From an uncultured Candidatus Saccharibacteria bacterium (GTDB lineage: Bacteria > Patescibacteriota > Dojkabacteria > J137): DNA of 64,000 bases. The stretch lies in assembly GCA_964561155.1 (NCBI GenBank), contig CAZLOI010000001.1, forward strand, positions 302,759-366,758, in the 5' to 3' direction. The notes under the pieces are model-generated. The model searched no databases. It was not told the origin of the DNA and saw only the letters and a program-made list of their open reading frames with translations. Each line of letters starts with the position of its first letter. Position 1 is the first letter of the stretch. This document shows positions 20,083 to 43,982 of the stretch, one piece after another. The translations under genes and the position numbers were made by a program.

Positions 20083-20937
20083 TCAGATCTCCTTTAAACC
20101 TCTAAACTCTTTCTCTTTGTATTTCTTTGATAGTAGTTCTAGGTATCTTTCAGTTGTTCCTGGGGATTTGTGTCCTACGATGTGAGATAGGTCACTGATT
20201 GGTACACCGTTAGATAGTTGGAATACGATGAATGCATTCCTGAAATCATTTACAGATGCACTGGATACCTTTGCTCTCTGGAAATATCTGGATAGAGAAG
20301 CTCTAATGTTTCTAATCTCCATTCTTCGATTCTTCTTTGTACAGAACACATACTTCTCTGGATTATTCTCAACAATATATGCCTTAAGTATTCCGTAGAT
20401 CTTGTCACACATAGGAATATCTCTTGCTGGTATGGAATCCTGCTGATTGATGTGAATATTAGGATTCTTACGATCAAAAGTTATATCCAGAACCTGCAGA
20501 TTCGCAAGCTCAGATATCCTAATACCAGTTTGAATCAGTAATTCAAGCATCGTATAGATCTTATCGTTCTCCTTACAAACCTCTCTAATCTTATTAATCT
20601 CTAAAAGACTTAAAGTTCTTGGTTTAGACTGAATATATTTAGGGTGAACAATCTTACCTGAGAAGTCTTCTTCGATGATCTTTCTTTCAGCGAGGAACTT
20701 AACAAAGGTTCGGTATGTATTAATTTTTCTTGCAACGGTCTTAATGGCACTATAGGATTTTTTAATTTCTCGGTATATTTCGTTGTAGTCATCAAGCGAA
20801 AGGGTAACTACTTCTTTGTTTCCGGAGATACTGATTAACTGCTTAATATCAGCAATGTACGCGATGAGGGTTGACTTACTCTTCTTCTTTCTCTTAAGAT
20901 ATTCTTGGAACTGATTTAATGCTGTTTGGTTGTTCAT
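20083..20937 (-). CDS. Tyrosine site-specific recombinase (phage-integrase/Xer family)
   Basis: It has an N-terminal SAM-like core-binding domain. The catalytic motifs are box I RISELANL, …HIVGHKSPGTTERYLEL (the H-x-x-G-H…Y nucleophile region), and RNAFIVFQLSNGVPISDL. It lies immediately 5' of tRNA-Ile(UAU) on the same strand. Confidence 0.85.
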   Translation of the reverse strand: MNNQTALNQFQEYLKRKKKSKSTLIAYIADIKQLISISGNKEVVTLSLDDYNEIYREIKKSYSAIKTVARKINTYRTFVKFLAERKIIEEDFSGKIVHPKYIQSKPRTLSLLEINKIREVCKENDKIYTMLELLIQTGIRISELANLQVLDITFDRKNPNIHINQQDSIPARDIPMCDKIYGILKAYIVENNPEKYVFCTKKNRRMEIRNIRASLSRYFQRAKVSSASVNDFRNAFIVFQLSNGVPISDLSHIVGHKSPGTTERYLELLSKKYKEKEFRGLKEI

Positions 20938-30884: not shown

Positions 30885-30914
30885 TTGACCAGATGTTACT
30901 TTCTTTGATACAAT
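30885..30914 (+). promoter_or_regulatory. Candidate sigma70-type promoter upstream of the rRNA operon
   Basis: TTGACC-N18-TACAAT lies ~250 nt upstream of the 16S 5' end. The spacer is 1 nt long of optimal, so the call is weak. Confidence 0.3.
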
Positions 30915-31160
30915 CACTTCACACTTATCTTAAAGCAATTTAAGAAGTGCTAAACAATTATCCCAAACAATAAATTGAACTTTTAAAAGTGATAAGGAAC
31001 GTCAAGTTTTCTTTGAGTTTAATCTAAACTCTTGTAAACGTTCTGTTTTGGAATCGACAGAATGTTATTCCAGAAATACTAAGCAATTAGTTATTTCTAA
31101 ATTATTCCGCTATTAAATTAGCAAACTTAAATATGGAATCTCGATTTATCGAGATGAAAT

Positions 31161-33057: not shown

Positions 33058-33164
33058 TTTAATATTTAGTAATCTGCTTTCTCGCAAGAGAGAGTAGATA
33101 ACTGAAAGTTAAAACTTTTAGTGATTAATTGATCTTTAACAACTGAATAGAAGGTGAATAACCG

Positions 33165-36200
<3,036 letters not shown>

Positions 36201-36342
36201 CCGGTTATACACCCTTCTATTCAGTTTCTAGAGATTAATTAACGTATAGTGTAGTAAAATACACCATACGTTAGTATCTTAGAACTTTTAAAATTATGAC
36301 TTCTGTCACTAGATATCTGGGAAGCTCCAACTTCCTAGATAT

Positions 36343-38511: not shown

Positions 38512-40998
38512 ATGGCAGACTTGAAAGGCCTTAACAGACTTACAGATAATGCAAAGAGAGTACTCTCTCAAGGAGAAGAAATCGCACGACTAAATAACTC
38601 AAAAGAATACAAAGTTATTCACTTATTCTATTCAATTTTAAACGATCGTTCATCTATCATAAATGAGCTATTCGCTAAACTAGGTATAGAATATGATGAA
38701 ACAAAAGATAGAGTAGCAAACGAGATTAAGATCACATCGTTTAGAAATGAGAAGGTAAATAAAGTAGTATTCTCAGAAGAACTGAAGAAAGTAATCAACG
38801 ATTCAATAGTAATAGCACAGGAGCTAAGCACTGTGTATGTAGGTATTGAACACCTGTTCCTATCCATCTTCAAACAAACAGATATTGATTTTGTTAAATC
38901 AATAAATAACTCTGGAATACACTATCAACTTGTAAAGGATTCTTTAATGGGAATCGTTACATACCCAGCACTTTCAGTCCTAGGAAGAGGAGATGATTTC
39001 CAAGAATTTGAAGATGAAAAAGATGGAACATACTACAGCAGGAATATGAACGAAGCGAGTATCAATGGAGAGATTTCAAACATTACAGGAAGAGACAAAG
39101 AGATTCAAAGATTAATTCATATACTAGCAAGAAAGAGCAAGAATAACCCAATTCTTGTAGGAGAAGCAGGTGTTGGTAAGACTGCTATCGTTGAAGGATT
39201 TGTAAACATGATAGTTCAAAAGAAAGTACCCGCAAGCTTTATTAACAAGAAGGTTTTAAGTGTAGATATAGCAGGGATTGTTGCTGGAGCTAGGTTAAGA
39301 GGAGATGTAGAAGAAAGAATAACTTCAGTTATTAATGAAGCAATAGATGATGGTAATACAATTCTCTTTATTGATGAAATTCATATGATTGTAGGAGCAG
39401 GTTCTACAGGAGGAAAGGATTCACTAGATATAGCAAACATTCTAAAACCATACCTTACAAAACCAAACCTAAGTGTTATTGGAGCAACTACACACGATGA
39501 ATACACAAAATACTTCGAAGAAGACACAGCGCTATCTAGAAGATTTCAACCAATATTTATAGACGAGTTAAGTGAAGAAAGTGCCAAAGAGGTTATATAT
39601 CAACTAATTCCAGAGTTCGAAGCATTCCACAGCCTAAAGATACAAAAAGAAGCAGTGGATATGGCTGTAACTTTATCTGCAAAATTCATTCAAGACAGAT
39701 TTCTTCCAGACAAGGCCTTGGACATAATTGACGAGGCAGCAGCGAGTGTAAAGATAGGTCGAGAGTTCGCTATAGAGCCCGAATTAAGCGAGTTAGGTAA
39801 CAACCTGATGAAAATCCAGTCTCGAAAAAATAAGGCCCTTAAAGAGGCTAATTTTGAGTTGGCGTCCAAATATAAATTGGACGAAGAAAAAGTAATCGAC
39901 AATATCGAAGCAACAGTAGAAGGAAAGAAGAAAGTGAAGAAAAAATATGCGAAGGTAGTAACCGCTGACCTGATTAAGGACATTGTTGTTGAGATGACAA
40001 AGATTCCAATCGCTGCTAGCGATATCTCGAATAAGAATTTGAAGGATTTATCAGTAAATTTAAAAGCAAGGATAATTGGCCAAGACACGGTCATAGATAA
40101 TGTCTCTAAAGCTATACAAAGGTCTCACTTAGGATTGAATGGAGACAAGCGACCATTGTCTTCTTTCTTGTTCTTGGGTCCAACTGGTGTAGGTAAGACA
40201 GAGCTTGCAAAGAGTTTGGCACGTGAGGTATTTGGTTCTGAATCCTTAATGTATCAGATTAATATGAGTGAATTCATGGAAATGCACTCAGTTGCTAAGT
40301 TGGTTGGTGCTCCTCCTGGGTACATTGGATATCAAGAAGGTGGTCAACTAACATCGTTTGTTAATCGAAAACCATATTCAGTAGTGTTATTCGATGAAAT
40401 TGAGAAGGCGCATCCAGACACATTGAATATACTGCTTCAGATACTAGAAGAAGGATCATTAACAGACGGAAAGGGAGGCAAGGTAAGCTTCCGTAATACT
40501 ATAGTAATTCTAACCTCAAACATAGGCGCATCATACGTAAAGAACGATGCAAGAATGGGATTCGACATTTCTTTTGATAGTAGCGACAAGGCTGAATTTG
40601 ATAGGGCGTATGAAGATATGAAGGAAGTTATATTAGAAAAGCTTAAAGAAGATCTACGTCCAGAGCTAATTAACCGAATAGATTCTATCGATGTCTTTAG
40701 AGGTTTAAGTCGTGAAGATACTGACCAGATAGCGAGATTGATCGTTGATGAAACAAGGATTAAGCTACTTTCAAAGGGTATTAGGTTAAGTGTTTCCGAG
40801 GAAGTGATCTTAAAGATTAATGAACTTGGATATAGTAAAGAGTATGGTGCTAGGAATATTAGAAGACAGGCTATAGAATTCTTGGAAAATAGGCTCTCTG
40901 AGTTCCTTCTTACACTTAATATTGGAAAGAAGAGGACCGAAGTTCTGGAGCTTCAAGCTAAGCTAGTAAGTGGAAATGTTACGTTTACCGTGAAATAG
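38512..40998 (+). CDS. clpC: ATP-dependent Clp ATPase ClpC-like (canonical Hsp100 with Clp_N domain and short UVR-type middle domain)
   Basis: It has Clp_N repeats (NAKRVLSQGEEIARLNNSKEYKVIHLFYSIL). D1 has GEAGVGKTAIVEGF and ILFIDEIHMIVGAG. D2 has FLFLGPTGVGKTELAKSLA and VVLFDEIEKAHPD. The middle domain is short and contains ANFELASKYK. Confidence 0.9.
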   Translation: MADLKGLNRLTDNAKRVLSQGEEIARLNNSKEYKVIHLFYSILNDRSSIINELFAKLGIEYDETKDRVANEIKITSFRNEKVNKVVFSEELKKVINDSIVIAQELSTVYVGIEHLFLSIFKQTDIDFVKSINNSGIHYQLVKDSLMGIVTYPALSVLGRGDDFQEFEDEKDGTYYSRNMNEASINGEISNITGRDKEIQRLIHILARKSKNNPILVGEAGVGKTAIVEGFVNMIVQKKVPASFINKKVLSVDIAGIVAGARLRGDVEERITSVINEAIDDGNTILFIDEIHMIVGAGSTGGKDSLDIANILKPYLTKPNLSVIGATTHDEYTKYFEEDTALSRRFQPIFIDELSEESAKEVIYQLIPEFEAFHSLKIQKEAVDMAVTLSAKFIQDRFLPDKALDIIDEAAASVKIGREFAIEPELSELGNNLMKIQSRKNKALKEANFELASKYKLDEEKVIDNIEATVEGKKKVKKKYAKVVTADLIKDIVVEMTKIPIAASDISNKNLKDLSVNLKARIIGQDTVIDNVSKAIQRSHLGLNGDKRPLSSFLFLGPTGVGKTELAKSLAREVFGSESLMYQINMSEFMEMHSVAKLVGAPPGYIGYQEGGQLTSFVNRKPYSVVLFDEIEKAHPDTLNILLQILEEGSLTDGKGGKVSFRNTIVILTSNIGASYVKNDARMGFDISFDSSDKAEFDRAYEDMKEVILEKLKEDLRPELINRIDSIDVFRGLSREDTDQIARLIVDETRIKLLSKGIRLSVSEEVILKINELGYSKEYGARNIRRQAIEFLENRLSEFLLTLNIGKKRTEVLELQAKLVSGNVTFTVK

Positions 40999-41170
40999 GT
41001 GGATAACTTGCAAGAAACACGTAGTTTCTAGTAAAAATAGATGTTTTGCCATTGATTTTCCCAGAAAATACACAACTAAAATAAGTCACCGGAGTAGAGT
41101 GACGCTGAAATGCCCTACTCAATGGTGTCTTCGGAGGGGTAGGGTTACACCTACGAGTTTACTATAGGAC

Positions 41171-41198
41171 TTGACATGAAAAGATTATAGGGTATAAT
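41171..41198 (+). promoter_or_regulatory. Near-consensus sigma70 promoter (TTGACA-N16-TATAAT) driving the rho leader
   Basis: TTGACA at 41171-41176, TATAAT at 41193-41198. Confidence 0.5.
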
Positions 41199-41230
41199 AT
41201 TATTTGTAACTTAAAAATAGAAGCACTGAT

Positions 41231-41381
41231 GGTTAATCCCAAGATCTAGTTCGCGTGCACAATCATGTAAATGATTGACTTACTGGATTTTCGGATTAAC
41301 CCTCACAAGCTACTTAATCCCAGAGTCTGGTTCGCGTACACAATTGCGTAAGTAATTGACTTACTGGACTCTCGGATTAGG
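41231..41381 (+). repeat. Two tandem ~70-nt imperfect direct repeats, each a long stem-loop, in the rho 5' leader
   Basis: Unit 1 (41231-41302) is GGTTAATCCcaagatctag-TTCGCGTGCACAATCATGTAAATGATTGACTTACTGG-attttcGGATTAACC. Unit 2 (41314-41381) is TTAATCCcagagtctgg-TTCGCGTACACAATTGCGTAAGTAATTGACTTACTGG-actctcGGATTAgg. The outer 9-bp stem and the inner CAATCAT/ATGATTG hairpin are conserved. Confidence 0.6.
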
Positions 41382-41501
41382 TAGTTACCTTCTATTTTAT
41401 TTTCATTTATCCTTTCAACTGATATACTATTTTTAAATCCCAGCTATTTTCCCTACAACCGAACAACTATTCACTTATTTATACAAATTTACATTTAATT
41501 T

Positions 41502-42791
41502 ATGCCAACAAAGAAAGACGCAATCGCTAAATCTACTAGTATTCATGATCTAGAAGAGAAGACATTGGTAGATCTTAGAAAGATCGCAGAGGAACTTAAT
41601 ATTCCTAACCACTTAGATTTTCAGAAATCAGATTTAATACTAGCTATTGTAGCGGAGGAAACAAAGAGAGGAGGTAATATCTTCGCAGAAGGTTTCCTAG
41701 AAATTATAAAGGACTCACATGGAGTTTTAAGAAGTGGAACAATGCTTCCAGGAGAGAACGATGTATACATATCAGGTTCTCAAATAAAGAGGTTCAACTT
41801 AAGACAAGGAGACTTCATTTCTGGACAAGCTAGACCACCAAAAGAAGGAGAAAGATATTTAAGTCTTCTAAAGGTTGAAGCTATCAATAACATGAGTCCA
41901 GACAAGGCTTTAACTAGAGATGGATTTCAAAAGTTAACTCCAATTTTCCCAGATCAACAGATTAAACTAGAAACATCACAGCATGTTTTATCTACACGTC
42001 TAATCGACCTACTATGTCCAATTGGAAAAGGTCAAAGAGGTATGATTGTAGCTCCACCAAAGGCTGGTAAGACATGGTTACTAAAAGACATTGCTGCAGG
42101 TATTGCAGAAAACCATCCAGAGATTCATTTAATGGTTCTTTTGGTTGGAGAACGTCCAGAGGAAGTTACTGACTTACAAAGATTTGTTAAAGGAGAGGTT
42201 ATTGCTGCAAACTTTGATGAACAGCCAGAATATCATACAAAAATAGCTGAAATGGCCGTAGAACGAGCTAAGAGGCTTGTTGAATATGGAAAGGATGTTG
42301 TGATACTAATGGACAGTTTGACTAGGCTTGCAAGAGCTTATAACATCATAGCGCCACCATCAGGTAGAACATTGTCTGGAGGTTTTGACCCAGTTGCTAT
42401 ATTCCCACCAAAGAAGTTCTTCGGAGCTGCTAGGAACATGGAAAATGGAGGATCTTTAACAATCATTGCTACAGCTTTGGTTGATACTGGTTCAAAGATG
42501 GACGAAGTTATCTTCGAAGAGTTCAAGGGTACTGGAAACATGGAAGTTAAGTTAGATAGAAGACTTGCAGAGAAAAGAATATATCCTTCAATCGACGTTA
42601 CTCAGTCATATACTAGAAATGAAGACAAGTTATTGTCTCCAGAAGTTCTAGCACAGACTTGGAGAGTTGTAAGAATGTTGGATACTATCAAATCTGAAAC
42701 AAATTCAAATCCTGCTGAGATTTTAATCAGTAGAATTAAAAAGACTAAGACTAACGAGGAGTTCTTGGCAACCCTTCACGAGAGTTTCTAA
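41502..42791 (+). CDS. rho: Transcription termination factor Rho
   Basis: It has the N-terminal Rho_N domain (IHDLEEKTLVDLRKIAEELNIP), an OB/RNA-binding domain, the P-loop GKGQRGMIVAPPKAGKT, and the Q/R loops. Confidence 0.95.
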   Translation: MPTKKDAIAKSTSIHDLEEKTLVDLRKIAEELNIPNHLDFQKSDLILAIVAEETKRGGNIFAEGFLEIIKDSHGVLRSGTMLPGENDVYISGSQIKRFNLRQGDFISGQARPPKEGERYLSLLKVEAINNMSPDKALTRDGFQKLTPIFPDQQIKLETSQHVLSTRLIDLLCPIGKGQRGMIVAPPKAGKTWLLKDIAAGIAENHPEIHLMVLLVGERPEEVTDLQRFVKGEVIAANFDEQPEYHTKIAEMAVERAKRLVEYGKDVVILMDSLTRLARAYNIIAPPSGRTLSGGFDPVAIFPPKKFFGAARNMENGGSLTIIATALVDTGSKMDEVIFEEFKGTGNMEVKLDRRLAEKRIYPSIDVTQSYTRNEDKLLSPEVLAQTWRVVRMLDTIKSETNSNPAEILISRIKKTKTNEEFLATLHESF

Positions 42792-42866: not shown

Positions 42867-43982
42867 ATGGAATTTAAACAGAAAGATCCTGAACCTTCCA
42901 GTTTAAGGGAGAAGATGCTTTTGAATTTACAAATGCAACAGTCCAAGTTGATCGCAAGATCATATTGGGGTAGAAGTACTTTGTATAAACAGCTTATCCA
43001 TATCTCGATTATAGTTATAACAACTATTGTTTTAGCTACTGGTTTAAACGCTAGATCTACTTCAGCAAATACTCAAATAGCTTATCAAAATCCATCTGCT
43101 TATCAGAATGTAGATACATTGGAGCAGGGTGGTTTTGTTGTTACTGAGTTTATAGCTACAGACAACTTTAAGTTTAAAGTTAACTCATATACCGTTGTAG
43201 ATGGAGATAGTGTTCAGTCTGTTGCTGACAAGTTCGGTGTTACAAAGGAGACCGTTAAATGGTCAAATCCAGTTATCGATTATTACAGTGAAGACATAAG
43301 CCCAGGATCAACATTGTTCATACCTGAAATAAATGGTGTCCTTTGGGAGGTCAAGGATGGAGATACGATTGACTATGTTCTTTCGAAGACAAGTGGTGAT
43401 AGATTCTTGATGATTGAGATTAATGATTTGAATGAAGCTCAACAAAACCTAACTGCTGGAGCAAAGATATTTGTTCCTGGAGGAAACTTACCACCACCAC
43501 CTAAACCACAACCTGTATATTATGCTCCTGTTTATTCAGGTGTTCCTTGCGGACAGAGTGCACCAATTAATGCAGATGGAAGTATTAACGGTATTACTCT
43601 AACAAATCCTGTAGGAGACTCATGTTGTGGAGGATACATCGAGACTAGAGGTTTGTTCTATATCGATGGTTTCTTTCATGATGGTACAGACCTTTCAAAG
43701 GGAGGAGGTTGTCCTTTAAGAGCTTCTTCTGATGGTTATGTAGAATATGCAGGATGGGGACCATATGGAGAAGGTCTACACGTTAAGATTAGTCATGCAA
43801 ATGGTGTTAAAACATACTACTACCATATGAATGATGTATGGGTTTCTCAAGGTCAGCAGGTAACAATGGGACAAAACATTGGATATATGGGTTGTACAGG
43901 TAACTGTACTGGTACTCACTTACACTTCATTCTAAAGCTAGATGGAGGAGCAGTTAATCCTAGAAGTTATTTGAACTACTAA
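42867..43982 (+). CDS. LysM-LysM-M23 peptidoglycan endopeptidase with an N-terminal membrane anchor
   Basis: It has two LysM-like repeats (YTVVDGDSVQSVADKFGVTKETVKWSNP; WEVKDGDTIDYVLSKTSG), a PPPPKPQP linker, and the M23 motifs HDGTDL…GYMGCTGNCTGTHLHF. Confidence 0.8.
   Translation: MEFKQKDPEPSSLREKMLLNLQMQQSKLIARSYWGRSTLYKQLIHISIIVITTIVLATGLNARSTSANTQIAYQNPSAYQNVDTLEQGGFVVTEFIATDNFKFKVNSYTVVDGDSVQSVADKFGVTKETVKWSNPVIDYYSEDISPGSTLFIPEINGVLWEVKDGDTIDYVLSKTSGDRFLMIEINDLNEAQQNLTAGAKIFVPGGNLPPPPKPQPVYYAPVYSGVPCGQSAPINADGSINGITLTNPVGDSCCGGYIETRGLFYIDGFFHDGTDLSKGGGCPLRASSDGYVEYAGWGPYGEGLHVKISHANGVKTYYYHMNDVWVSQGQQVTMGQNIGYMGCTGNCTGTHLHFILKLDGGAVNPRSYLNY

What the first reader, a model, noticed from the sequence alone, without database searches (positions are those of the whole stretch)
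41040..41501. rho 5' leader: consensus promoter followed by two tandem homologous stem-loops (candidate cis-regulatory RNA)
About 500 nt separate clpC from rho. The region contains a near-perfect sigma70 promoter (TTGACA-N16-TATAAT at 41171-41198). It is followed by two ~70-nt direct repeats, each folding into a long hairpin with a 9-bp outer stem GGTTAATCC/GGATTAACC and a conserved inner hairpin and loop (TTCGCGTRCACAAT…TTGACTTACTGG).
Rho autoregulates through its leader in other bacteria. Duplicated structured modules here could be Rho-loading/attenuation elements or a protein-binding riboregulator.
The two units are only ~80% identical, with compensatory changes in the stems (caagatctag/ctggattttc vs cagagtctgg/ctggactctc). 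This argues for selection on structure rather than recent duplication.
Basis: seen in the sequence. Interest (0 to 1): 0.55.

Follow-up and report, generated by a model that had tools for sequence, protein, structure and literature searches.

The report
Conserved structured RNA upstream of rho
The two hairpins are real: they are two copies of an undescribed RNA structure that candidate-phylum Dojkabacteria keep behind a dedicated strong promoter just upstream of the termination-factor gene rho, probably to control how much transcription reaches rho.

Summary
Observation confirmed. A 12/12 sigma70 promoter (41171-41198) is followed by two 66-nt repeats (82% identical), each a long hairpin (z = -6.4).

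The hairpin is a conserved RNA module of Candidatus Dojkabacteria (CPR). It lay upstream of rho on the rho strand in 11 of 11 rho loci fetched through the protein alone. A sequence-pattern metagenome scan gave 23 further true loci. Covariation is strong: 22 of 32 pairs show double changes and 90% of cells are paired. Invariant G.U pairs and model scores (76-102 vs 18-44 bits) put it on the + strand. It matches no Rfam family and is not dispersed.

The "rho leader" reading is only partly right. rho has a second promoter (window 41400-41428) below the hairpins. Many relatives add a boxA at +1, a second hairpin with loop GGGCAGUG, and often a terminator before that promoter. One relative has the RNA but no rho at this locus.

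The window stretch 41391-41510 is the most C-rich, G-poor 120 nt of all 64 kb, so it looks like a Rho-loading site.

Best reading (0.4): a nut/put-like, protein-recognised module that gates transcription from the upstream promoter into rho. Main rival (0.3): a stand-alone small RNA. It is a new RNA family of a known general kind.

The parts
41161..41168 (+). ACTATAGG element abutting the -35. A second TATAGG lies at 41186-41191, abutting the -10.
   Evidence: It is present at the same place in all 25 related loci printed (1-nt variants: ACTATGGG, ACTATAAG). It is unique in the window. Function unknown; possibly a regulator site.
41171..41198 (+). Promoter P1: TTGACA-N16-TATAAT.
   Evidence: It scores 12/12. 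A near-consensus promoter sits at the same place in all relatives.
41206..41219 (+). 5' end of the P1 transcript, GTAACTTAAAAATA. This is a degenerate counterpart of the boxA found at +1 in relatives.
   Evidence: Relatives carry GTTCTTTAAAA or GTTCTTTAATA, exact matches to the published boxA consensus GYTCTTTAANA. The window version has 3-4 mismatches, so boxA function here is doubtful.
41227..41305 (+). Hairpin module, copy 1 (diverged paralogue). Outer stem 41231-41239/41293-41301. C mismatch at 41240/41292. Middle helix 41241-41250/41282-41291. Bulge TCGCGTGCA 41251-41259. Apical hairpin with GUAA loop.
   Evidence: It shares the G28A:C86U change with copy 1 of L001 and L091.
41308..41387 (+). 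Hairpin module, copy 2 (canonical). Outer stem 41308-41320/41375-41387. C mismatch at 41321/41374. Invariant helix AGAGTCTGGT/ACTGGACTCT. Bulge TCGCGTACA 41332-41340. Apical hairpin with GUAA loop.
   Evidence: It scores 85.6 bits on + against 22.7 bits on -. Its core is identical to that of L081 and L097.
41389..41398 (+). CTTCTATTTT, a perfect 10-nt complement of 41214-41223. It may form a helix closing both hairpins, and it begins a U-rich tract.
   Evidence: (repeat I8). It is conserved in L198 but not in L199 or L001, so support is weak.
41400..41428 (+). Candidate second promoter P2 for rho: TTTTCA-N17-TATACT, with TG before the -10.
   Evidence: It scores 9/12. The TATACT -10 is conserved in L198 (TTAACA-17-TATACT) and L001. 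In most relatives it appears as TTGACA-17-TATACT.
41391..41510 (+). C-rich, G-poor (26 C, 4 G) tract predicted to be unstructured, resembling a Rho-loading (rut) site.
   Evidence: It has the most extreme C>G skew of 6388 120-nt windows in the 64 kb. In 18 of 24 loci the region between the motif and the conserved part of rho (in a few loci including an N-terminal rho extension) holds a stretch in the lowest 0.5% of its locus for C>G skew.
41502..42791 (+). rho, 429 aa.
   Evidence: It matches NF006886 (E = 1.9e-183) and TIGR00767.

Best explanation
**What it is.** The two hairpins are two copies of an undescribed structured RNA module that is widespread in Dojkabacteria. Each module is about 100 nt and has these parts:
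- a variable outer stem;
- three pairs UCC/GGA;
- a C that is never paired;
- a 10-bp helix that is nearly invariant in sequence and contains tandem G.U pairs;
- a nearly invariant 9-nt bulge, UCGCGUACA, facing a variable 4-nt strand;
- a variable apical hairpin.

It is transcribed from its own invariant near-consensus promoter P1, immediately upstream of rho and on the rho strand.

**How I think it works.** The module acts in cis, as the recognition part of a termination-control region, in the way a nut or put site does. A protein of the termination machinery binds the nascent hairpin. That protein could be Rho itself or a Nus-type factor travelling with RNA polymerase. Binding sets how many polymerases that start at P1 pass the termination zone downstream. 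In the window that zone is the C-rich, G-poor Rho-loading-like tract. In many relatives it is an intrinsic terminator with a competing antiterminator. The module therefore tunes the rho mRNA made in addition to that from the basal promoter P2.

**Shown:** the structure, its strand, its conservation, its linkage to rho, both promoters, the terminators in relatives, and the C-rich tract.

**Inferred:** that a protein binds the hairpin, that the tract is a Rho site, and that P1 transcripts read into rho.
For: - **Structure.** Of the 32 model pairs, 22 show double changes and 90.4% of cells are paired. Sliding the partner gives 33-51% paired, and 0 of 500 shuffles reach the observed values. Every instance folds the same way.
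- **Strand.** U33.G81 is invariant and G34.U80 nearly so (27 of 31). The + strand scores 76-102 bits against 18-44 for the - strand.
- **Linkage to rho.** The motif was present in 11 of 11 rho loci fetched through the protein alone: L001, L081-L083 and L194-L200. Among 23 true hits of the pattern scan, 19 have rho downstream on the same strand and 3 are cut off. The upstream neighbour varies (clpC, radA or another ORF) while the downstream neighbour stays rho.
- **Specificity.** There were no hits in 79 rho loci of other phyla, in the rest of the window, or in 695 kb of viral DNA that matched the sequence pattern.
- **Signals that act in cis on polymerase.** Relatives carry a boxA matching GYTCTTTAANA at +1. 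This genome has similar boxes in its rRNA operon.
- **Regulated termination in relatives.** A terminator follows the RNA. An alternative, stronger pairing of its 5' half is predicted in 13 of 13 sequences, and its flanks covary. Spacer shuffles give z = -2.7 to -8.3 in 9 of 11.
- **Rho-loading-like tract.** It is the extreme of the whole window and recurs in 18 of 24 loci.
- **No terminator in the window.** None is predicted between P1 and rho on the + strand.
- **Geometry.** The unpaired C and the bulge are always 10 bp, one helical turn, apart. This suits a single protein surface (inference).
Against: - rho has its own promoter below the hairpins, so the hairpins are absent from P2 transcripts.
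- About a dozen lineages show the promoter-RNA-terminator-next promoter layout typical of an independent gene.
- ORFs are inserted between the RNA and rho in L098 and L106, and L095 keeps an intact RNA with no rho at the locus.
- The outer stem is too long and stable to act as a switch helix.
- Rho is known to bind single-stranded C-rich RNA, not hairpins (own knowledge).
- The boxA is degenerate in the window's own clade.
- No binding protein has been identified.
Confidence: 0.4

Rival explanations
1. It is a stand-alone small RNA gene that merely sits next to rho. P1 makes an abundant RNA of about 100-250 nt whose conserved bulge and helix bind a cellular partner in trans. Such an RNA could be a protein-sequestering RNA with one or two binding sites. 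It ends at its own terminator, or at the U-rich tract after the last hairpin in the window's clade.
For: - It has its own invariant strong promoter.
- An intrinsic terminator is followed by a separate rho promoter in L083, L086, L092, L094, L099, L103, L104 and L105.
- ORFs are inserted between the terminator and the rho promoter in L098 and L106.
- L095 keeps the RNA without rho.
- The 41-nt core is identical in lineages whose Rho proteins are only 64-86% identical, as expected for an RNA that docks on conserved machinery.
- The copy number is 1 or 2, with both old and recent duplications.
- A U-rich tract follows the last hairpin in 6 of 7 window-clade loci.
Against: - The RNA stays adjacent to and co-oriented with rho while the upstream neighbour changes.
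- The terminator has a stronger competing fold that would form first, which would be counterproductive for a simple gene end.
- Several lineages (L082, L087, L089, L194-L196) have no U-run after the second hairpin.
- The window has no predicted terminator before rho.
- A boxA is a co-transcriptional signal and has little use in a 200-nt RNA.
Confidence: 0.3
2. It is a riboswitch-like aptamer for a small molecule or ion, sometimes in tandem for cooperativity. The terminator/antiterminator of relatives would serve as its expression platform.
For: - An invariant internal loop is flanked by covarying helices.
- Tandem G.U pairs are common metal and ligand sites (own knowledge).
- Tandem copies exist in several lineages.
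- Relatives have a terminator with an alternative fold.
Against: - The aptamer would be closed by a very stable stem totalling 25-30 bp that does not overlap the antiterminator, so ligand binding has no evident route to the platform.
- The window's clade has no expression platform at all.
- A promoter lies between the platform and the gene.
- No metabolic logic links a ligand to rho.
- No Rfam riboswitch family matches.
Confidence: 0.08
3. It is an RNA processing and stability element. The near-continuous duplex of about 26-28 bp with an asymmetric internal loop would be an RNase III-type cleavage site, like T7 R1.1 or the rnc and pnp leaders, or a 5' stabiliser of the P1 transcript.
For: - It is a long duplex with an asymmetric internal loop.
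- It sits right after a boxA, as the RNase III stems of rRNA operons do (own knowledge).
Against: RNase III sites and 5' stabilisers need shape, not an invariant 9-nt bulge, invariant tandem G.U pairs and a never-paired C. This idea also does not explain the exclusive linkage to rho.
Confidence: 0.1
4. It is a generic repeated palindrome (REP or MITE-like), or a DNA-level operator, with no RNA function.
For: It is a palindromic repeat in an intergenic region, and it is tandemly duplicated.
Against: - There is one locus per contig and no other copy in 64 kb or in any related locus.
- Invariant G.U pairs would be A.C mismatches on the other strand.
- The strand asymmetry of the model scores argues for RNA.
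- Covariation keeps pairing, not sequence.
Confidence: 0.02

Closest known systems
Rho autoregulatory leaders of E. coli and B. subtilis (Rho-dependent attenuation in the rho 5' leader; own knowledge, and the review PMC12360218 listed)
   Same: An untranslated region precedes rho, and it contains a C-rich, G-poor tract of the kind Rho loads on. The logic of feedback on the termination factor's own gene is the same.
   Different: Those leaders have no conserved structured hairpin module, no dedicated upstream promoter with a boxA, and no intrinsic terminator/antiterminator. Rho dependence has not been tested here.
Lambda nutR/tR1 and rRNA-operon antitermination leaders (boxA plus hairpin; in lambda the rut sites flank boxB)
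   Same: The element is promoter-proximal. Relatives carry a boxA matching GYTCTTTAANA at +1, followed by a hairpin and then a termination zone. The same genome has boxA-like sequences in its rRNA operon.
   Different: The hairpin is about 100 nt with its conserved part in an internal bulge, not a 15-nt boxB with a conserved apical loop. No N-like protein is known. The boxA is degenerate in the window. The covariance model finds nothing like it in the rRNA leader.
HK022 put RNAs (cis-acting, RNA-only processive antiterminators made of two tandem stem-loops just downstream of a promoter; own knowledge)
   Same: One or two tandem stem-loops with conserved internal irregularities sit directly downstream of a strong promoter and upstream of terminators.
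   Different: Here one copy is the common state.
Autoregulatory leaders of genes for RNA-binding proteins, such as ribosomal-protein leaders
   Same: A lineage-specific structured RNA is strictly tied to the gene of one RNA-binding protein.
   Different: There is no resemblance to any rRNA segment. A promoter separates the structure from the gene. Rho is not known to recognise hairpins.
Tandem riboswitch architectures (glycine, NAD+-I, guanidine-II; own knowledge)
   Same: Two homologous structured modules lie in series in some lineages.
   Different: No Rfam match was found. The closing stems are very stable. The window has no overlapping expression platform.

Membership tests
Any Rfam 15 family | A match at the gathering score, or at least a suggestive E-value, to one of the 4227 covariance models. 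| tested here: not met
   Only rRNA and tRNA matched in the window. At E<=10 only chance miRNA and sRNA hits appeared (best E-values 5.4, 0.22), all far below their gathering scores. The fuller relatives also gave only tRNA.
REP / dispersed extragenic palindrome | Many copies scattered through the genome. | tested here: not met
   The repeat occurs at one locus only in the 64-kb window and in each related locus.
nut / rrn-type antitermination site | A boxA sequence (GYTCTTTAANA-like) near the 5' end of the transcript. | tested here: inconclusive
   The match is exact in L092, L094 and L100. It has one mismatch in L083, L086, L097, L099, L104, L105 and L197. The window's GTAACTTAAAAA has 3-4 mismatches.
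nut / rrn-type antitermination site | Binding of NusB/NusE (and N or other factors), and resistance to termination. | not testable with these tools
   This needs biochemistry or genetics.
Rho autoregulatory leader | A C-rich, G-poor, unstructured tract of about 80 nt or more upstream of or within the 5' end of rho. | tested here: met
   41391-41510 has 26 C and 4 G, the extreme of 6388 windows. 18 of 24 loci have a stretch in the lowest 0.5% for C>G skew between the motif and the conserved part of rho.
Rho autoregulatory leader | Rho-dependent premature termination that responds to the Rho level. | not testable with these tools
   This needs in vitro transcription or bicyclomycin experiments.
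Riboswitch (transcriptional) | An aptamer whose closing helix competes with the expression platform. | tested here: not met
   The closing stem totals 25-30 bp and does not overlap the antiterminator strand. The window has no terminator.
Intrinsic-terminator attenuator | A G+C-rich hairpin plus U-run between the promoter and the gene, with an alternative fold. | tested here: inconclusive
   This is met in L083, L086, L092, L094, L095, L098, L099 and L102-L105. There is no U-run in L082, L087, L089 and L194-L196. The feature is absent from the window.
Independent sRNA gene | Its own promoter and its own terminator, separate from neighbouring genes. | tested here: inconclusive
   The promoter is present in all loci. 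A terminator is present in about a dozen relatives but not in the window.
SRP (4.5S) RNA / 6S RNA | For SRP, a conserved apical GNAR tetraloop with symmetric and asymmetric loops next to it. For 6S, a rod of about 180 nt with a large central bubble. | tested here: not met
   The apical hairpin and its loop vary in sequence and length. The only internal loop is 9x4 nt. Neither Rfam model matches.
T-box leader | A match to the T-box family covariance model (Stem I specifier loop, conserved T-box sequence in the antiterminator), upstream of aminoacyl-tRNA-related genes. | tested here: not met
   No RF00230 hit appeared at E<=10. The downstream gene is rho.

The most novel reading that the evidence does not exclude
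The RNA may be a dedicated partner of the termination machinery in a candidate-phylum bacterium. One possibility is a chromosomal put-like RNA that makes polymerase resistant to termination on the way to the termination factor's own gene. Another is an abundant RNA that binds and titrates Rho or a Nus factor, through one or two copies of the invariant bulged helix. It would then be a global regulator of termination, comparable in spirit to 6S or CsrB.
Probability: 0.18. Interest if true: 0.8.

Novelty: new variant of a known kind. Interest (0 to 1): 0.6.

Why it matters
Rho is the main factor-dependent terminator of bacterial transcription, and its level is tightly self-controlled in model bacteria through unstructured leaders. 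This study finds a lineage-wide, strongly covarying RNA structure with its own consensus promoter tied to rho. The lineage is a reduced-genome, uncultivated phylum. Relatives add a boxA, a second conserved hairpin and a switchable terminator.

This gives a concrete and testable handle on how termination-factor homeostasis is organised outside model organisms. It also adds a well-supported new RNA family for CPR bacteria, whose non-coding RNA repertoire is largely uncharted.

If the hairpin proves to bind Rho, a Nus factor or RNA polymerase directly, it would be a new kind of RNA regulator of termination.

Tried and rejected
- **Rfam.** I searched at gathering and at E<=10 on the window, on L083 and on 12 fuller loci. 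Nothing relevant appeared.
- **Dispersed repeat.** Motif halves and the covariance model found no other copy.
- **Phage or virus origin.** A loosened pattern gave 84 matching loci in viral contigs. The covariance model, run on 80 of them, found none, so these matches are chance. This also serves as a negative control.
- **GC-rich metagenome matches.** L090 and L093 are chance matches with no hairpin and no model hit.
- **rRNA mimicry.** Only 7-9-nt matches to the rRNA operon turned up, all at E>=1.
- **The bulge as an antisense seed.** The complement TGTACGCGAAC has no convincing target. The best hit, at 20856, lies antisense inside a minus-strand ORF, and the 23S hit has two mismatches. The best duplexes with the rho leaders are not conserved in position.
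- **Leader-peptide attenuation.** A short ORF spans the terminator in L094, but L105 has no such ORF, so it is not conserved. I read this directly from the sequences printed.
- **Closing helix 41214-23/41389-98.** It is perfect in the window and in L198 but absent from L199 and L001. The same 5' segment also has a second perfect partner at 41427-36. I treat this as unproven.
- **Pairing of G41-U42 with the 3' side of the loop** (an RNAfold suggestion). The partner columns vary without compensation.
- **Region 40999-41170 upstream of P1.** It has no significant structure (z = -0.53).
- **Structure-aware alignment of the 3' domain.** This failed because MXSCARNA is missing. I replaced it with per-sequence folds and shuffles.

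Full report
**1.
A ClpC-like ATPase gene ends at 40998. rho (429 aa; NF006886, E = 1.9e-183) starts at 41502. Between them lies a perfect sigma70 promoter, TTGACA-N16-TATAAT, at 41171-41198 (12/12). Two 66-nt direct repeats follow, at 41233-41298 and 41314-41379. They are 82% identical and 81 nt apart. Each repeat unit with its flanking stem folds into a long hairpin. The energies are -31.5 and -37.1 kcal/mol, with z = -6.4 for both, and no shuffle of 200 did as well. The whole leader has z = -6.3. The differences between the copies are compensatory in both the middle helix and the apical hairpin, and both apical loops are GUAA.

**2. Organism.**
The closest genome hit for Rho is a Candidatus Dojkabacteria MAG (86% identity). 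All other genomes are at or below 59%. The protein database holds more than 100 Dojkabacteria Rho sequences at 72-100% identity. The window therefore comes from a member of this CPR/Patescibacteria lineage.

**3. The hairpin is a conserved RNA module tied to rho.**
- I fetched rho loci through the protein alone, so the sample is unbiased for the RNA. They are L001, L081, L082, L083, L194, L195, L196, L197, L198, L199 and L200, with Rho 72-93% identical. All 11 carry the module upstream of rho on the same strand.
- A metagenome scan with a sequence pattern gave 25 loci. Two are GC-rich chance matches. Of the 23 true ones, 19 have rho downstream on the same strand, 3 are cut off by the end of the stored sequence, and one (L095) has no rho in the locus.
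- The gene upstream varies between clpC, radA and other ORFs, while rho stays downstream.

**4. Anatomy of the module**.
- The outer stem has 10-15 bp of free sequence.
- Three pairs, UCC/GGA, come next.
- A 1x1 mismatch follows. Its 5' C is conserved and faces C, A or U, never G.
- The 10-bp helix AGAGUCUGGU/ACUGGRCUCU is nearly invariant in sequence. It contains the tandem wobble pairs U33.G81 (31 of 31) and G34.U80 (27 of 31).
- An asymmetric internal loop follows. Its 5' strand, UCGCGUACA, is nearly invariant (one position is A or G). Its 3' strand of 4 nt is variable.
- The apical hairpin has 7-11 bp, and its sequence and loop are free.
- Of 32 model pairs, 22 show changes on both sides and 90.4% of cells are paired. 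Sliding the partner gives 33-51% paired, and no shuffle of 500 reaches the observed values.
- The unpaired C and the bulge are always one helical turn apart.

**5. It is an RNA on the rho strand, unique and unclassified.**
- The invariant G.U pairs would be A.C mismatches on the other strand.
- The covariance model R1 scores 76-102 bits on + and 18-44 on -.
- R1 finds nothing in 79 rho loci from other phyla, nothing elsewhere in the 64-kb window, and nothing in 695 kb of viral DNA that matched a loosened sequence pattern.
- Rfam 15 has no matching family, either for the window or for the fuller versions in relatives.
- Literature searches found no description of it.

**6. The duplication.**
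Tandem pairs occur in the window, L001/L101, L091, L198, L199 and L200. Separately, L197 has two nearly identical copies. In the window, L001 and L091, copy 1 shares the compensatory change G28A:C86U and a relaxed middle helix, while copy 2 is canonical. This duplication is therefore old and both copies have been kept. The L197 pair is recent. Most other lineages have one copy.

**7. The surroundings change the interpretation.**
- **(a) Promoter P1.** P1 is remarkably conserved. All 25 related loci examined have ACTATAGG (rarely ACTATGGG or ACTATAAG) abutting TTGACA, and nearly all have TATAGG abutting the -10. This arrangement is unique in the window.
- **(b) A boxA at +1.** In most lineages the transcript starts with GUUCUUUAAAA or a close variant. 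L092 and L094 match the published boxA consensus GYTCTTTAANA exactly, and seven more loci have one mismatch (PMC5725501). The window's rRNA operon has similar boxes at 30977, 33131 and 36282. In the window's own clade the box is degenerate.
- **(c) A second conserved hairpin.** In lineages with Rho 80% identical or less, a second conserved hairpin follows 50-130 nt later. Its stem covaries (GGGGUCGG/CCGAUCCC, GGUCGACUC/GAGUCGAUC, GAUCGACC/GGUUGAUC, GCUGGUCGACC/GGUUGACCAGC). Its loop, GGGCAGUR, is conserved. It occurs once per locus.
- **(d) Terminator and competing fold.** In about a dozen loci the second hairpin is followed by a U-run and scores as an intrinsic terminator. In 13 of 13 such sequences its 5' half and loop can instead pair with the upstream spacer in a stronger hairpin. 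That hairpin has -20 to -47 kcal/mol, against about -15 for the terminator. The flanks covary, and spacer shuffles give z = -2.7 to -8.3 in 9 of 11.
- **(e) A second promoter.** After this element comes a second canonical promoter, TTGACA-N17-TATACT, and then rho. The window has the counterpart TTTTCA-N17-TATACT at 41400-41428. Its closest relative, L198, has TTAACA-N17-TATACT.
- **(f) Separation from rho.** L098 and L106 have one or two ORFs inserted between the RNA's terminator and the rho promoter. L095 keeps promoter, module, second hairpin and terminator, but a small ORF with a weak NikA-like (ribbon-helix-helix) match stands where rho should be.
- **(g) The window's clade.** The second hairpin and the terminator are missing here. 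No + strand terminator is predicted between P1 and rho, although a U-rich tract follows the last hairpin.

**8. A Rho-loading-like tract.**
Window 41391-41510 has 26 C and 4 G. This is the most extreme C>G skew of all 6388 120-nt windows in the 64 kb. In 18 of 24 loci the region between the motif and the conserved part of rho holds a stretch within the lowest 0.5% of its locus; in a few loci this region includes an N-terminal extension of rho. This composition is what Rho prefers for loading. It fits the Rho-dependent self-attenuation known for rho in E. coli and B. subtilis (own knowledge).

**9. Mechanism.**
I commit, at 0.4, to a cis-acting termination-control module. The conserved bulged helix would be a recognition site for a protein of the termination machinery, either Rho or a Nus-type factor on the polymerase. 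It would set how much P1-initiated transcription passes the downstream termination zone and adds to the P2-driven rho mRNA. That zone is the C-rich tract in the window and the terminator/antiterminator in relatives. In this respect the module works like a nut or put site placed before a rut site.
- Shown: the structure, the strand, the conservation, the linkage to rho, the promoters, the terminators and the tract.
- Inferred: protein binding, Rho dependence and read-through.
- Main rival (0.3): an independent small RNA gene next to rho. Points 7(d)-(f) support it directly.
- Lesser rivals: a riboswitch (0.08), an RNase III or stability element (0.1), and a REP or DNA operator (0.02).

**10. 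Verdict.**
The reading as a rho leader cis-regulator is partly supported, because the element is rho-linked and structured but lies upstream of a second rho promoter and often has its own terminator. It is a new RNA family of a known general kind.

Noticed in passing
window 30977-30988, 33131-33142, 36282-36293: boxA-like sequences occur in the rRNA operon: GAACTTTTAAAA in the 16S leader, GATCTTTAACAA 22 nt before the 23S start, and GAACTTTTAAAA between 23S and 5S. The rRNA promoter candidate is TTGACC-N17-TACAAT, at about 30887-30915.
   Followed up: partly
window 41161-41168 and 41186-41191; all related loci: P1 carries two TATAGG elements, as ACTATAGG before the -35 and TTATAGGG before the -10. 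The first is present (with rare 1-nt variants) in all 25 related loci and the second in nearly all, and they occur nowhere else in the window. ACTATAGG happens to equal the 3' end of the T7 promoter. They may be a regulator site.
   Followed up: partly
L083 2312-2340; L086, L092, L094, L095, L098, L099, L102-L105; variants in L082, L087, L089, L194-L196: A second conserved hairpin lies downstream of the module. Its stem covaries and its loop, GGGCAGUR, is invariant. It acts as a terminator in some lineages only, and it is absent from the window's clade. Short complementarity (4-5 bp) exists between this loop and ACUG, or GUAC, of the first hairpin.
   Followed up: partly
L095 2475-3355 (contig Ga0105047_10000195): This lineage keeps P1, the module, the second hairpin and the terminator after radA. 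A 137-aa ORF with a weak NikA-like (ribbon-helix-helix) match stands where rho, the M23 peptidase gene and ndk are found elsewhere.
   Followed up: partly
L098 3840-4800; L106 2670-3330: One or two small ORFs, one with a lipoprotein-like N-terminus, are inserted exactly between the RNA's terminator and the rho promoter.
   Followed up: no
L197 1100-1320: A recent tandem duplication of the module has produced two nearly identical copies, including the apical hairpin. It is independent of the old duplication seen in the window.
   Followed up: partly
window 41211-41223 versus 41389-41398 and 41427-41436: The 5' end of the P1 transcript has two perfect 10-nt complements downstream. One lies right after hairpin 2. 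The other overlaps the -10 and start site of the candidate P2. This could be an alternative pairing or an AT-rich coincidence.
   Followed up: partly
rho leaders of most loci, e.g. window 41454-41462: A recurrent UUCCCA-like box (TTTTCCCTAC, AATTCCCAAC, GTTTTCCCAAAT and similar) lies in the leader downstream of P2.
   Followed up: no
protein list; L096 4716-6362; L089; L083: Dojkabacteria Rho proteins range from 429 to 574 aa because of low-complexity N-terminal extensions. The window's Rho has none.
   Followed up: no
window 42867-43982 and related loci: A LysM + M23 peptidase gene follows rho in nearly all lineages and is sometimes duplicated. The clpC-(radA)-RNA-rho-M23 order is conserved.
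   Followed up: no
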